Source: Perna viridis (lineage: Eukaryota). Taken from it: 64,000 bases of DNA. The stretch is from positions 18,972,001 to 19,036,000 of the forward strand of contig CM074514.1 in the NCBI GenBank assembly GCA_037379345.1. The letters are read 5' to 3'. The first letter of the stretch is position 1; each line of letters begins with the position of its first letter. Shown here piece after piece: positions 60,001-64,000 of the stretch. A program made the position numbers.

Positions 60001-63000
60001 GAAAAATACGCGCCTAAAATGAGGAAATATGTTGAATACATCGATAATTAAAACAATAGTACCCAACATGTCTATTGTATACCGTTTATATGCGAAAAAA
60101 TTAACATTTTAGTTCATGATTAGGTTTTTTTTCATAGGTAGGGGTGGCAATTTTTCACCTAACTTGACTTACAAAAGTTCAAATATTTATTACTTGGGGT
60201 AATTTTGAAGCTTAGACACTATATTAATATACTGTATCATAGATAAGCTTGATTGATCAACGGTATTCTGAAAAAAAAAAATCGAAATAACGGGTGATAT
60301 AGAAGAAATTCTGAAATTCTGAAAATTCCCATTTTTATGATTTTATAGTAATTATTATCCCAAAAAGAAAATCAAAACGCCTGAATTAATCAGATATATT
60401 ATGTTATCATGATCTAAATTATGAATACCAAAAATATGAGTTCTACAATGTCAGTATTCTGTGAATGAGAATTATGTTTAATACTGAGACCAGTTTCCTA
60501 GGGGTAGGGGTAATATGTTTTACAGTTTTTGAAAATCCTTTCTCGAAAATTAGTTTTTCCTGATTTATTCATGTCGAAAATTAAATTATCTATCGAATGA
60601 TACCAAATTTTAGACGTTTTAGTTGAGCAATAACTTGAAAAGTCGAATATTTGTGACTTTTGACCAAAAAATCGAAAATCCCATTTTTCGCATTTGTTGT
60701 TAAATTCTGACTACGAAAATCGCCAAAATTAATCAAAAGAACCCCAGAAGTACGAATTGTGATAATACGAAACAGAAAATACCAAATAAGTCATTTTTTA
60801 CTGAAGCATTAATAGTCTAGGGATTTTGACATTAAAAATATGTCGATTTCAGCGATTTTTCGGTGGGGTAGGGGTACATTTTTTTTTCATTTACCGCAAA
60901 ACCCTAACTGTCATCGCAACTTTCCTGGCACCATTGTAAAGCTGAGACATTGGGCTACATGATGATATATAAATATGTCAGTTTACTTCTTTCCGTATAA
61001 AGAAGCAGTTCGTAGAACCAAAAAACTTTTAAAAAGAATTTTGCCTCATCGAGGTATAAAAAATAGCCAAAAAAATACAAAAATGCTTCAGTTTATTTTT
61101 TTGGCAACAAAAAGATTCGTAAATGGGAGGTATAAGAGTACCTGAAAATCATATTTTGGTTGATGAGTAGGGGGTGCGCGGGGGTTATCTAAGCCCACGT
61201 ACTAATATCATTTCAGTTTTGTTCAACTTTTTCTTTTCAATTGTTAATTACACAGATTGTCTAATTTTTATTTATACCATTCAGTCAAGTGTATAAAAAT
61301 ACAAAATGGTTAAGTGCTAGTAGATACATATTGACGCTTCTAAATAGATCAAATCACCTTCATATTTATAACTACCTTGCAAGGTAGAATTACGCAGAAC
61401 CACGAAAAGCCCTCGGTTTAAGTTTAAAACCCCCATTTCTAAAAATAAATCAGCAATGCCTTGTACACTTAACAACTCAGTCATATCAGCGATCAGTTGA
61501 CTTCCTTCTTCATGGCCGTTCGGAACGTGATTCGTGGTTAACAGGAGACAGAGGATTACCATGACAGGAATAAGGAAAGGTAAGTTAATAAGTTAGTAAA
61601 TAACTTTTGAACAATAAGTAATACAAATTTAATTTTTAAAAATAATTTTGTTTGGTTTTATTGATTATGTATGTTAATAGTTGAACTAGGTCATTCTAAA
61701 TTCAGAGTTCAGTTATCAAGATACCCTTTACTGCCGTTAAATTCCGTTTTTAGTAGTAATTACTACTTTGGTCATTGTGTTCACGTTATACTTGTTAAAA
61801 CCTGGTTTACGACGACATGAAATTTAATACTTATCAAAACTAAAGATTCGGATGGTTACACATTCCTTACTGGGTTATTCTTTTCTATTGGTTATTAAAT
61901 ATACTCAACCTTTTCGTAAAAAATTGATAACGTCTAGCCCATAAAAGAAAGAACAAATGGGGTTTAAATACGTTTATGTGTACTGATTTGTGTGGTTACA
62001 TTTTTCTTTATCATATGCTCTGTTTGTGTGTATCACCATTCACACACAACTCAGATTACTGTAGATAAGAGAAGGACAAAGTATACATGTAGATCCTAGT
62101 ATATATATCAATATAAGTACACTCACAGTATACATAAACATGTGATCATTATAAAAATCCTTCGTATAGTTCTCAATTGATGTTGAGGTGCTTGTGCACT
62201 GACATGACAAGCGCAACCAATTTATAACAAATTAGTTACTAATTCAGCATTTAGTTTACATGATAATGATCAGAATGAATTATTTATTCCAACATGGTTA
62301 ATTTCTTAATTGTTTAAATAGTTCCTTGTTCATAAAATAAGTTGTTGACTATTAAAGTAAGATTTACTTCCTTAATTTTTCAAGTAAAAAAACTCTCTTG
62401 ATCAAATACTGGGTAAAATGAAAAATGACCAAAAACCTGACGCATCAAGAACAATTTAAACTGCAACAGACTAAAAACGAACTAAACAATCACAATTTTC
62501 TTTTTTTTTCAGATGTTTTGACTTTTATGCCTCTTAACTGTGCCTGGGCTCAGGATTTACTCGACAATGTTTATAAAACATGTCTTTCAAAAGGTCCATT
62601 AAAAGGGTGGATCCCAATGAAAATTCATATTGTGGACAATCCAGATTTGGAGGAAGCATTTGAAGATCGTAAAGAGTCACTGCGGAAAATGGTAGGAAAA
62701 GAAGAATAGCTTTCATCAATTGTAGAACCAATTTTTTTGTTAATGGACGATTTTCTCCTTTTATACATCTTCATACTGTGATTTAATGACGGCGTGGTTT
62801 GCCATTTACAGCAGCTGTTTATTTATTTATTTATTTTTTTGATTGATAGTCTATGTTTGCTTTGGTAAAAGCAAATATTATTTCAGGTGTTTTTTTTTAA
62901 TCATGGTTGATCTAACCTATCATGTATTTATGTTGTTTCAGGGGAGAACCGAGGAAGAACTTAAGGAGGTTTATTGTTTCGTGGCCGAATCTTGGAAAGC

Positions 63001-64000
63001 AGTTGTTAGCATGTGTAAATATGGCATCAGGTGTTCTATAAAAAAGACAAACATATTGGGAGATACCAGGGCTGGAATACATTTAAACCGAAATTATGAC
63101 ATGTTGTTGAAATTCATGACGTTCAGGAATTTTATTTCGGCAAGATGTATCGTTGTTTTAAAGGTACGAAAACATTTAATTACTCATTAGAAGTGACATT
63201 ATTGTGTTAACATGCAATCTAGGTTAAAAATTGATCTGTCTTTCCCACGCACTGGGTTCTTTGAGTCCAGCTTATGGTAGACTGCTTTTTGCTCAATTAT
63301 TTTAAAACAATTTACGGTGTATTTTTTTTATTTGTTATACTTCAGTTTGTCTTTTTACATATTTCATTTTCTAACAGATGGATCATTATGTAAACTAGTT
63401 TAACAGTATGATATTGCACCCTATTTCCATCGTTTGATAAACTTTAAAAGAACTGAAGTGTTGTAAATAGAAAAATGTCTAAATTTGTATGTAAATTGCA
63501 AGCCATCTTTTTTTTAATTTTTAGGTTATCCCTGGACGTACTAAGCGAGTAATGCCAAGATTCAAAGGGCGAACACTACTTCATCCTTCTAAACATTATG
63601 ATTCACACATATCTGTAATCGATGCAGATCCACATATACCCATAAATGAAGGCCTCGCAAACAATTTCGTAAGTATCTGTTAAGGTAAATAGTTATCACA
63701 TATTAAGGATTGTAATTATGAATGTATTTTAGATAAAAATGATATTAGGTGCACCTGGTCCATGCTTCCAGTTATTAGTGGAGTCCGAGTTGCTCATTTG
63801 CTTTTGTTACTTTGTATGTATGATTTTAGTTACTTTATGTTCTTTGTTGTCTATGCCTGTTTTCCATGTCGGATCTTTGTCCCTGGATTACATTCTTTTG
63901 ATTACCGCTATAACCTTGGTTCCCTTGATTACTCATTAACGAATTCTAAAATGCTCAGTATCAAATTATAAAACAAGATGAAAGTTTACAACAAAGTTTA

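What the first reader, a model, noticed from the sequence alone, without database searches (positions are those of the whole stretch)
61561..63668. Divergent invertebrate TASOR/TEX15-like pseudo-PARP gene
Seen: four phase-consistent exons encode a DUF3715-like domain beginning only a few residues after the predicted start Met (in-frame TGA at 61528 upstream). The PARP catalytic His position reads YCFVAE and the GxY motif reads GIHL, so even the Tyr kept in TASOR (GVYL) is replaced. Known: DUF3715 defines TASOR (HUSH complex), TASOR2 and TEX15 (piRNA-directed transposon silencing) in vertebrates. Inference: a lineage-specific paralog that may belong to an uncharacterised molluscan germline transposon-silencing system. 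The CpG-intact context hints at tissue-restricted expression.
Basis: partly seen in the sequence, partly recalled or inferred. Interest (0 to 1): 0.68.

Follow-up and report, generated by a model that had tools for sequence, protein, structure and literature searches.

The report
Mussel pseudo-PARP (DUF3715) gene start
This is the real first part of a mussel gene for a large protein that begins with a catalytically dead PARP-like domain of the kind vertebrates use to silence jumping genes; related mussels and oysters already carry automatic annotations of it, but nobody has studied it.

Summary
Four plus-strand exons (61561-61579, 62513-62691, 62942-63163, 63525-63668) have canonical splice sites and consistent phases. 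They match residues 1-188 of Mytilus californianus LOC127709344 without gaps, at 77-84% identity.

Exon 3 alone matches Pfam DUF3715 (E=2.9e-5) and human TASOR structure 6TL1 (E=3.6e-4). The full-length relative passes Pfam's cut-off. The PARP triad positions read V-H-N, so the domain should be inactive.

It is not the TASOR orthologue. Four of four clade relatives carry no SPOC, DUF3699 or TEX15 domain even at E<=10. Mytilus trossulus has a separate DUF3715-SPOC gene that is much closer to TASOR.

The clade, found in mussels and oysters, pairs the domain with a 1,100-1,900-residue low-hydrophobicity, RS-rich tail and a conserved C-terminal motif. The His that replaces TASOR's Tyr occurs in 13 of 15 relatives, so it is not special to this gene.

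Germline or transposon-silencing function is inference only. The gene runs off the window after exon 4. 

Verdict: real, ordinary-to-moderately interesting new member of a known family.

The parts
61528..61530 (+). In-frame TGA stop, 33 nt upstream of the start codon
   Evidence: Read. 61561-61528 = 33, which is 11 codons.
61561..61579 (+). Coding exon 1: ATG plus MTGIRK and the first base of Asp7 (ends in phase 1)
   Evidence: donor GTAAGT. P0001 and P0017 begin MTQIRKD. Too short to search alone.
61580..62512 (+). Intron 1 (933 nt)
   Evidence: GT...AG with a polypyrimidine tract. No match to relatives.
62513..62691 (+). Coding exon 2, residues 7-66: N-terminal part of the PARP-like fold, upstream of the Pfam model
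   Evidence: 81% identity to P0001 and P0017 residues 8-66, no gaps. No Pfam hit alone.
62692..62941 (+). Intron 2 (250 nt)
   Evidence: Donor GTAGGA and acceptor CAG.
62942..63163 (+). Coding exon 3, residues 67-140: core of the DUF3715 domain, with the degenerate His and Tyr positions
   Evidence: Pfam PF12509 E=2.9e-5, 24.5 bits. TASOR 6tl1_A E=3.6e-4. ESM Atlas nearest clusters are PARP, scores 0.92 and 0.90. 81-84% identity to P0001 and P0017 residues 67-140. The 3' exon boundary is shared by genomic ORF fragments P0002, P0006, P0007 and P0014.
62981..62983 (+). GTG, Val80: the position of the PARP catalytic His (TASOR L184)
   Evidence: Alignment; TASOR numbering; table.
63080..63082 (+). 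CAT, His113: the position of the PARP nicotinamide-stacking Tyr (TASOR Y217)
   Evidence: Alignment. His here in 13 of 15 relatives.
63164..63524 (+). Intron 3 (361 nt)
   Evidence: Donor GTACGA and acceptor TAG.
63525..63668 (+). Coding exon 4, residues 141-188: DUF3715 strands up to the position of the PARP catalytic Glu
   Evidence: 77-79% identity to P0001 and P0017 residues 141-188, no gaps. No Pfam or PDB hit alone.
63660..63662 (+). AAC, Asn186: the position of the PARP catalytic Glu (TASOR Gln of 'LTQ')
   Evidence: alignment of the relative to 6tl1. TASOR triad L-Y-Q from Table 1 of PMC7955679. Table.
63669..64000 (+). Start of intron 4; the gene continues beyond the window
   Evidence: Donor GTAAGT. 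No match to residues 192 onward of P0017 or P0001, and no match to P0022, anywhere in the window.
63717..63937 (.). Interspersed repeat copy inside intron 4; not an exon
   Evidence: Repeat families D1, I4 and I16. Other copies at 32427-32642, 35284-35454, 49479-49699 and 31845-31934.

Best explanation
Shown:
- The region is the intact 5' end of a mytilid mussel gene: start codon plus four coding exons, residues 1-188.
- It is orthologous, or very closely related, to Mytilus californianus LOC127709344.
- It belongs to a bivalve clade that also holds Saccostrea LOC134255872 and LOC133199509.
- Clade members begin with a DUF3715 (RDTS) PARP-like domain. In this copy the three PARP triad positions read Val-His-Asn, so NAD+-dependent catalysis is not expected.
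- In full-length relatives the domain is followed by a 1,100-1,900-residue polar, low-hydrophobicity, RS-dipeptide-rich tail. I found no SPOC, DUF3699 or TEX15 domain. The tail holds a conserved C-terminal motif of about 45 residues, TLS[KR]AMxSLLK[KR]I...EG[RK]MA[DE]MV.

Inferred:
- By analogy with TASOR and TEX15, whose DUF3715 domains are interchangeable and needed for RNA-directed transposon silencing, the protein most likely acts as a non-enzymatic nuclear adaptor.
- The SR-like tail would keep it near nascent RNA and RNA-processing machinery.
- The pseudo-PARP domain, with its extended beta8-beta9 loop and conserved Tyr-x-Tyr, would pass on a repressive signal.
- The C-terminal motif would bind a still unknown partner.
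- It would do this outside a vertebrate-type HUSH complex.
For: Gene model and orthology:
- Splice sites and phases are canonical.
- The three searchable exons match P0001 and P0017 in order and without gaps, and nowhere else in the window.
- P0017 is named M. californianus LOC127709344 isoform X2.
- P0001 comes from a 6,957-base contig that carries a 2,108-codon frame. That leaves no room for introns, so I infer the relative is transcribed and spliced this way.
- In the exon-3 tree the window sits with P0017, P0001 and P0002 (support 97/94).

Family:
- Exon 3 matches PF12509 at E=2.9e-5.
- P0017 scores 52.3 bits against a cut-off of 28.5.
- P0017 matches TASOR 6tl1 at E=8.7e-11. A profile of 16 relatives matches it at E=6.5e-38.
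- DUF3715 scored above the cut-off in 9 of the 14 representative-search hits that I scanned.

Dead active site:
- The window reads V-H-N.
- None of 15 relatives has His at the His position, and none of 15 has Glu at the Glu position.
- TASOR reads L-Y-Q and is experimentally inactive.

Constraint:
- The window keeps 18 of the 20 columns that are invariant in alignment A1.

Architecture of relatives:
- Pfam at E<=10 finds only DUF3715, plus chance-level hits, in 4 of 4 clade proteins.
- In P0017 only residues 1-267 have globular-like hydrophobic content.
- RS/SR dipeptides exceed shuffled controls: P0017 has 56 against 40.0+-5.6, and P0005 has 55 against 28.6+-5.0.
- The C-terminal motif is present in P0017, P0004, P0005 and P0011, and in P0001, P0018, P0019 and P0022.
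- The Y303 and Y305 equivalents (IYIYQ) are invariant, and the loop is 17 residues long. Y305 and this loop are essential in TASOR.

Functional analogy:
- DUF3715 domains from TEX15 rescue TASOR (Results read in full).
Against: - No expression data exist for this locus.
- Nothing shows nuclear localisation, RNA binding or any effect on transposons in a mollusc.
- The molecular role of DUF3715 is unknown even in TASOR; the review calls it 'of unclear function'.
- The window lacks exon 5 onward. The essential loop, the tail and the C-terminal motif are seen only in relatives, not in this copy.
- Two columns that are otherwise invariant differ here: R123K and C181N.
- The window is only 77-84% identical to the M. 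californianus domain, while P0001 and P0017 are 99% identical to each other there. Orthologue versus recent paralogue is therefore not settled.
- The claim that the tail is disordered rests on composition only.
- Exons 2 and 4 have no Pfam hit on their own, and exon 3 scores below Pfam's cut-off when searched alone.
- P0013, a clear relative, gave no Pfam hit at E<=0.01. This shows that the Pfam model is weak for this group.
Confidence: 0.7

Rival explanations
1. It is simply the mussel orthologue of TASOR, the core of a HUSH-like complex, with SPOC, DomI, DomII and PIN modules too diverged to detect.
For: - The best solved-structure match of exon 3, and of the full-length relative, is human TASOR.
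- TASOR-like proteins are reported in invertebrates.
Against: - Pfam at E<=10 finds no SPOC (PF07744) or DUF3699 in 4 of 4 clade proteins.
- P0017 has no hydrophobic, globular-like stretch after residue 267.
- Mytilus trossulus LOC134688472 (P0021) is a separate gene. Its DUF3715 scores 105.6 bits, it has a SPOC match at residues 319-431 (E=5.3e-5, 23.6 bits, just under the cut-off of 25), and it matches TASOR 6tl1 at 120.5 bits against 43.3 bits for P0017.
- Window exon 3 shows no significant pairwise match to P0021.
Confidence: 0.06
2. It is a decaying duplicate, that is, a pseudogene or a fragment that is no longer expressed.
For: - Two columns that are invariant in relatives are changed: R123K and C181N.
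- The domain has diverged markedly from M. californianus (77-84%).
- The rest of the gene is outside the window, so its integrity is unknown.
- Repeats sit in intron 4, and a foldback-like element lies about 0.9 kb upstream.
Against: - All four exons are open, and all six splice sites visible in the four-exon model are canonical.
- The start codon has a good context, with a stop upstream in frame.
- 18 of 20 invariant columns are kept, as are 34 of the 46 columns where at least 6 of 8 relatives agree.
- There are no indels relative to the orthologue across 181 aligned residues.
Confidence: 0.07
3. It is an SR-related RNA-processing or nuclear-speckle protein whose PARP-like domain serves as an RNA- or protein-binding module in ordinary mRNA metabolism, with no special link to transposons or the germline.
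For: - RS/SR dipeptides are enriched, and RS-rich tracts occur in the tails of clade members.
- The TASOR PARP domain binds ssRNA weakly, and TASOR associates with RNA-processing factors.
- No data tie this clade to transposons.
Against: - Both characterised DUF3715 proteins act in RNA-directed transposon silencing, and their domains are interchangeable.
- The enrichment of RS dipeptides is modest, about 3-5 SD over shuffles in most clade members but only about 1-2 SD in P0022 and P0011.
- No RRM or other RNA-binding domain was found.
Confidence: 0.15
4. It is an active mono-ADP-ribosyltransferase with an unusual active site.
For: - Exon 3 resembles PARP catalytic-domain clusters in the ESM Atlas (scores 0.92 and 0.90).
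- There are weak PF00644 hits in P0005 (13.4 bits) and P0014 (15.9 bits).
- A His is conserved at the Tyr position.
Against: - None of the H-Y-E positions is kept: the window reads V-H-N.
- No relative has His at position 1 or Glu at position 3 (0 of 15 each).
- The PF00644 hits are far below the cut-off of 26.7.
- TASOR has a similar degenerate site, does not bind an NAD+ mimic and does not modify itself.
Confidence: 0.02

Closest known systems
TASOR (human HUSH core subunit; pseudo-PARP domain structure 6TL1)
   Same: - N-terminal DUF3715 PARP-like domain with a degenerate H-Y-E triad.
- Conserved Tyr-x-Tyr at the start of an extended beta8-beta9 loop, seen in the relative.
- A long disordered region.
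- TASOR is the best PDB match of exon 3 (E=3.6e-4) and of P0017 (E=8.7e-11).
   Different: - No SPOC-like (DUF3699), DomI, DomII or PIN modules were detected in clade members.
- Tyr217 is replaced by His.
- The loop is four residues longer than in TASOR (gap in the alignment; it measures 17 residues).
- The domain starts at the very N-terminus.
- The tail is RS-rich and carries its own C-terminal motif.
- Mussels have a different gene that resembles TASOR more closely.
TEX15 (vertebrate piRNA-pathway factor)
   Same: DUF3715 at the N-terminus of a very large, mostly non-globular protein. The domain is catalytically degenerate.
   Different: - No TEX15 domain (PF15326) in clade members (0 of 4). 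The fish control P0020 scores 136.8 bits.
- In the domain tree, fish TEX15 groups with the Mytilus DUF3715-SPOC protein and not with this clade (97/97, but both are long branches).
Mytilus californianus LOC127709344, and Saccostrea cucullata LOC134255872 / S. echinata LOC133199509 (RefSeq 'uncharacterized protein')
   Same: - Same clade (91/95 support).
- Same N-terminus and same exon-encoded blocks.
- 77-84% identity (Mytilus) and about 52% identity (Saccostrea, exon 3) to the window.
   Different: - The window copy differs at two columns that are otherwise invariant, R123K and C181N.
- The window reads V-H-N where M. californianus reads L-H-H.
- Only residues 1-188 can be seen here.
ZAP/PARP13 and other inactive PARP-like domains
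   Same: A PARP fold that has lost its NAD+-binding residues and is used as a non-catalytic module in RNA-linked defence (analogy drawn by Douse et al.).
   Different: - No significant sequence match. The profile search of the PDB gave only PARP14 at E about 0.3.
- No zinc fingers or WWE domains.

Membership tests
DUF3715 / RDTS domain family (Pfam PF12509) | Match of the window's own sequence to PF12509 at or above the gathering score (28.5 bits) | tested here: inconclusive
   Tested exon by exon only; the joined model was left out. Exon 3 scored 24.5 bits, E=2.9e-5, covering profile positions 6-63 of 150. Exons 2 and 4 gave no hit. One exon cannot reach the score of a full domain.
DUF3715 / RDTS domain family (Pfam PF12509) | The collinear full-length relative passes the gathering score across the whole model | tested here: met
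   P0017 scored 52.3 bits (residues 63-210, profile 2-150 of 150) and P0001 scored 51.6 bits. Window exons 2-4 align without gaps to residues 8-188 of these proteins.
DUF3715 / RDTS domain family (Pfam PF12509) | Sequence homology to the solved TASOR pseudo-PARP domain | tested here: met
   Exon 3 against 6tl1_A, E=3.6e-4. P0017, E=8.7e-11. Family profile, E=6.5e-38.
DUF3715 / RDTS domain family (Pfam PF12509) | PARP-like three-dimensional fold | not tested
   Structure prediction accepted no jobs, so no model and no fold search were made.
Pseudo-PARP (catalytically inactive PARP-like domain) | Loss of the H-Y-E triad | tested here: met
   The window reads Val80, His113 and Asn186 at the three positions. 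Activity itself was not assayed.
Pseudo-PARP (catalytically inactive PARP-like domain) | Extended beta8-beta9 loop with the functionally essential Tyr (TASOR Y305) | not testable with these tools
   This part is encoded downstream of exon 4, outside the window. In relatives, the Y190 and Y192 equivalents are invariant in 8 of 8 rows and the loop is 17 residues long.
TASOR family (HUSH core) | SPOC-like domain (Pfam DUF3699, or SPOC) and DomI directly after DUF3715 | tested here: not met
   No SPOC or DUF3699 hit at E<=10 in P0017, P0004, P0005 or P0011 (0 of 4). P0017 residues 268 onward have low hydrophobic content. Positive contrast: P0021 has a SPOC match at E=5.3e-5. This was tested on relatives, because the window ends at residue 188. 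A fold-level test was not possible.
TASOR family (HUSH core) | DomII/PIN and a periphilin-binding segment; partners MPP8 and periphilin | not testable with these tools
   The only PDB match of P0017 at E<=1, apart from a chance-level one, is the TASOR PARP domain. No mollusc proteome could be searched for MPP8 or periphilin.
TEX15 family | TEX15 domain (PF15326) downstream of DUF3715 | tested here: not met
   0 of 4 clade proteins at E<=10. The fish control P0020 scored 136.8 bits.
Active PARP / ART enzymes (PF00644) | PF00644 match above the cut-off, and an H-Y-[EIL...] triad with an NAD+-binding His and Tyr | tested here: not met
   No PF00644 hit for any window exon. The best hit in relatives was 13.4-15.9 bits against a cut-off of 26.7. 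The His and Tyr positions read Val and His.

The most novel reading that the evidence does not exclude
The window gene belongs to an old invertebrate branch of DUF3715 proteins that is separate from the TASOR/TEX15 branch.

- The branch is marked by an invariant G-x-H-[LM] in place of TASOR's G-V-Y-L.
- Its members have no SPOC, DomI or TEX15 modules.
- Instead they have a huge low-hydrophobicity tail. In the bivalve clade the tail is RS-rich and ends in a conserved helical-looking motif.

On this reading the branch is a free-standing, HUSH-independent pseudo-PARP silencing factor. It would couple nascent-RNA and splicing machinery to repression in animals that lack HUSH, working beside the DUF3715-SPOC gene that mussels also carry.
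Probability: 0.15. Interest if true: 0.7.

Novelty: new member of a known kind. Interest (0 to 1): 0.35.

Why it matters
DUF3715 is essential for HUSH and piRNA-directed transposon silencing in vertebrates, yet what the domain does at the molecular level is unknown.

A bivalve clade that keeps the domain and its critical loop, but drops every module that assembles HUSH, would be a natural minimal version. It could be used to ask what the pseudo-PARP does by itself. It could also show how animals without HUSH use the domain.

For genome annotation, the result shows two things:
- Mussels carry at least two very different DUF3715 genes.
- This one should not be labelled TASOR.

The value is comparative. 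The locus itself is an ordinary, already predictable gene.

Tried and rejected
Searches that found little or nothing:
- Word-index search of exon 3 among longer proteins found nothing.
- A search with part of P0001 found only the two Mytilus entries.
- An ESM Atlas look-up of the C-terminal motif region (P0004 residues 1240-1340) gave no usable hit.
- tRNA and Rfam scans of the window were empty.
- Seven further ORFs upstream of the gene had no Pfam family.

Ideas I dropped:
- I took the conserved stretch right after the domain in P0010, P0013 and P0016 for a SPOC candidate. It is only a roughly 30-residue motif (WEVxGETRRGFRF) followed by polar sequence. hhalign shows no relation to the bivalve clade (probability 0.1%). 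I therefore dropped the idea that those three are the TASOR-like genes.
- I considered a metal site or Cys-His dyad in the old NAD+ pocket, built from His113, His168 and Cys181. These are invariant in 8 of 8 relatives. The window has Asn at position 181, and no model could be built, so I did not pursue it.

Tools that were not available:
The taxa of P0004, P0008-P0016, P0019 and P0022 therefore stay unknown.

Collections and files:
- The collection genome contigs (bacteria and archaea) was not used, as it is irrelevant here.
- Supplementary files of papers are closed. The list of 239 DUF3715 sequences behind the tree of Schopp et al. may already include this clade.
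Full report
**Scope**

The window has no N. It is AT-rich invertebrate DNA and I did not take it for human. Tests that need a whole domain were run on database relatives returned by the tools.

**Observation**

- Reading 61000-64000 and measuring the junctions confirms four plus-strand exons.
  - Exon 1 is 61561-61579, starting at the ATG, with donor GTAAGT.
  - Exon 2 is 62513-62691, with a polypyrimidine tract plus CAG acceptor and donor GTAGGA.
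  - Exon 3 is 62942-63163, with CAG acceptor and donor GTACGA.
  - Exon 4 is 63525-63668, with TAG acceptor and donor GTAAGT.
- The phases fit. An in-frame TGA lies at 61528.
- Against 1.84 billion proteins, exon 3 alone found 16 proteins at E<=0.001. The best was P0001, 2,108 aa, E=1.8e-33, with the match at residues 67-140. That is the exact offset my model predicts.
- Exons 2, 3 and 4 align without gaps to residues 8-66, 67-140 and 141-188 of P0001 and P0017. Identities are 81%, 81-84% and 77-79%.
- Those proteins begin MTQIRKD; the window reads MTGIRK+D.
- tblastn of P0017 and P0001 against the whole window finds only these three pieces. Nothing matches residues 192 onward.
- The stretch after exon 4 holds an interspersed repeat that has four other copies in the window. 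The gene therefore leaves the window inside intron 4.
- Four genomic ORF fragments from other sources (P0002, P0006, P0007, P0014) end the exon-3 equivalent at the same ...K/R|V boundary. The splice site is therefore conserved.

**What the domain is**

- Exon 3 alone matches Pfam DUF3715 at E=2.9e-5 and 24.5 bits. This is below the 28.5-bit cut-off, but the exon covers only profile positions 6-63 of 150.
- Exons 2 and 4 give no Pfam hit alone.
- Exon 3 matches the solved human TASOR pseudo-PARP domain 6tl1 at E=3.6e-4. Its nearest ESM Atlas clusters are PARP catalytic domains (scores 0.92 and 0.90).
- The collinear relative P0017 passes Pfam over the full model (52.3 bits) and matches 6tl1 at E=8.7e-11. 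A profile of 16 relatives matches 6tl1 at E=6.5e-38. True PARPs appear only at E about 0.3.
- I scanned 14 of the 16 representative-search hits; P0002 and P0007 were not scanned.
  - DUF3715 was listed in 11 of the 14 and scored above the cut-off in 9.
  - P0012 is a repeat artefact.
  - P0013 gave nothing.
  - P0014 gave a weak PARP hit.

**Active site**

- Douse et al. (passages read) place TASOR L184 at the PARP His position. They name Y217 as the only conserved triad residue, and it is dispensable.
- Table 1 of PMC7955679 (passage read) gives the triads as TASOR L-Y-Q, TASOR2 V-T-E and TEX15 L-Y-S.
- With the alignments, the window reads Val (YCFVAE), His (GIHL) and Asn (GLANNF).
- The His is not peculiar to this gene. 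It occurs in 13 of the 15 relatives that have the column. The exceptions are the Mytilus DUF3715-SPOC protein (Gln) and fish TEX15 (Tyr).
- None of the 15 has His at the first position, and none has Glu at the third.
- The window keeps 18 of the 20 columns that are invariant among eight diverse relatives. It differs at R123K and C181N.
- The TASOR loop residues that are essential for silencing (Y303-H316, Y305) have invariant counterparts in relatives (IYIYQ, with a 17-residue loop). In this gene they are encoded beyond the window.

**Which gene it is**

- P0017 is 'uncharacterized protein LOC127709344 isoform X2 [Mytilus californianus]'.
- P0001 comes from a 6,957-base contig. I read that as a transcript assembly.
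- P0005 and P0018 are uncharacterized proteins of Saccostrea cucullata and S. echinata.
- I built a domain tree of 15 rows. I left out fragments P0002, P0003, P0006, P0007 and P0014, the artefact P0012, the N-terminally cut P0022, and the window itself.
  - The tree gives a clade of Mytilus, Saccostrea, P0004, P0011, P0019 and P0008 (91/95 support).
  - A second group holds P0009, P0010, P0013, P0015 and P0016.
  - A third pair joins the Mytilus trossulus protein P0021 with fish TEX15 (97/97), but both are long branches.
- An exon-3-only tree puts the window with P0017, P0001 and P0002 (97/94).
- The window is thus a mytilid copy of this gene.
- P0001 and P0017 are 99% identical in the domain, while the window is about 80% identical to both. 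I cannot tell an orthologue in another mytilid from a diverged paralogue.

**Not TASOR**

- The SPOC review (passages) notes that TASOR's SPOC-like domain is Pfam DUF3699, and that amphioxus has both a DUF3715-SPOC protein and a DUF3715-DUF3699 protein.
- In four of four clade members (P0017, P0004, P0005, P0011), Pfam at E<=10 finds no SPOC, DUF3699 or TEX15 domain.
- In P0017 only residues 1-267 have globular-like hydrophobic content.
- By contrast, M. trossulus LOC134688472 (P0021) differs on each point.
  - Its DUF3715 scores 105.6 bits.
  - It has a SPOC match at residues 319-431 (E=5.3e-5, 23.6 bits against a cut-off of 25).
  - It matches 6tl1 at 120.5 bits.
  - It has several hydrophobic stretches.
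- Window exon 3 has no significant pairwise match to P0021.
- Mussels therefore have at least two very different DUF3715 genes, and this is the one without assembly modules.

**The rest of the protein, in relatives only**

- The tails are Ser/Lys/Arg-rich.
- RS/SR dipeptides are about 3-5 SD above shuffles in most clade members and only about 1-2 SD in P0022 and P0011; outside the clade most tails are near or below expectation, though P0021 reaches about 1.9 SD.
- A motif TLS[KR]AMxSLLK[KR]I...EG[RK]MA[DE]MV lies near the C-terminus in P0017, P0004, P0005 and P0011 (4 of 9 long proteins scanned). It is also present in P0001, P0018, P0019 and P0022.
- The motif has no Pfam, PDB or Atlas match.
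- P0022 starts MIFSFFQ, which looks like a translated polypyrimidine tract and acceptor. It then continues IYIYQLDE..., exactly where exon 4 stops. The remainder of such genes therefore seems to be one giant exon. Whether P0022 comes from the window's species is unknown.

**Mechanism**

- What is shown is the gene structure, the family, the dead triad and the architecture of relatives.
- What is inferred is function.
- DUF3715 of TASOR is needed for H3K9me3 deposition but not for HUSH assembly.
- TEX15 domains can replace TASOR's DUF3715 domain (Results and Discussion read in full).
- The domain's molecular role is still 'unclear', and HUSH is said to appear first in cartilaginous fish.
- I therefore propose a non-enzymatic nuclear adaptor that works on nascent RNA or chromatin outside a HUSH-type complex.
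- Lower-ranked alternatives are an ordinary SR-like RNA-processing role, a decaying duplicate, the TASOR orthologue, and an active enzyme.

**Context**

- CpG observed/expected jumps from 0.11-0.30 to 0.64-1.23 at about 34-37 kb, with an intermediate 0.49 at 34001-35000.
- In oyster, CpG ratio is used as a proxy for germline methylation and differs by gene function (abstract of PMC2996979). This fits regulated rather than housekeeping expression but does not show it.

**Literature**

- Searches found no paper in the held library that describes this bivalve clade. One search was a loose search: 25 of 13,554 papers were listed.
- The word 'mollus' does not occur in Schopp et al..
- A Lymnaea paper merely reports a transcript annotated as TASOR.
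- Supplements were closed. The sequence list behind Schopp et al.'s tree may include this clade.

**Limits**

- No structure could be predicted.
- The cluster look-up was off.
- Neither expression data nor mollusc proteomes were available.

Noticed in passing
window 1-36000 versus 36001-64000: There is a sharp change in CpG depletion. Observed/expected is 0.11-0.30 on the left over the TRPM-like gene (0.49 at 34001-35000) and 0.64-1.23 on the right. The switch lies at about 34-37 kb. It looks like a border between a methylated gene body and unmethylated DNA.
   Followed up: partly
window 40588-44262, minus strand: A single uninterrupted 1,224-codon frame encodes an EF-hand plus WD40 protein. 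Its best PDB match is 'WD repeat domain 64' (9fqr, E=3.2e-40). It appears to be an intronless gene in the CpG-intact region, 17 kb upstream of the DUF3715 gene.
   Followed up: partly
window 17-31477, minus strand: Exon-like frames of a TRPM-type cation channel. The frame at 9324-9686 matches the Pfam TRPM2-like domain (E=2.9e-8). The frames at 17-289 and 1655-1903 look like pore and S6 segments; that reading is from recall and was not tested.
   Followed up: partly
window 31845-31934, 32427-32642, 35284-35454, 49479-49699, 63717-63937: A short interspersed repeat of about 170-216 nt is present in five copies and in both orientations, 79-95% alike. One copy lies in intron 4 of the DUF3715 gene.
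   Followed up: no
window 58807-60652: A foldback-like element with 247-nt terminal inverted arms (95% complementary) and nested inner inverted repeats. It ends about 0.9 kb upstream of the start codon. No Pfam family was found in an ORF overlapping its right arm.
   Followed up: partly
window 35158-36126, plus strand: ORF fragments containing ...LDLQKAFDTVDHNIL..., which I recall as a reverse-transcriptase motif of non-LTR retrotransposons. The downstream piece at 35773-36126 had no Pfam hit. The motif-bearing piece was not scanned.
   Followed up: no
window 714-1259 and 47068-47903: Two tandem arrays: 168 nt x 3.3 copies (94% matches) and 320 nt x 2.6 copies (83% matches). The second array shares inverted copies with 28269-29057.
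   Followed up: no
protein P0021 (Mytilus trossulus LOC134688472 isoform X2), not in the window: This is a second mussel DUF3715 gene, with a SPOC match directly after the domain. It groups with fish TEX15 in the domain tree (97/97, both long branches). It bears on the published statement that TEX15 is vertebrate-specific, but long-branch attraction is not excluded.
   Followed up: partly
proteins P0009, P0010, P0013, P0016, not in the window: A further group of giant proteins (2,361-3,115 aa) with an N-terminal DUF3715 domain and unknown taxon. They share a roughly 30-residue motif WEVxGETRRGFRF just after the domain (hhalign probability 94% between P0009 and the other three). P0009's domain is closer to human TASOR (76.9 bits) than the bivalve clade's is.
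   Followed up: partly
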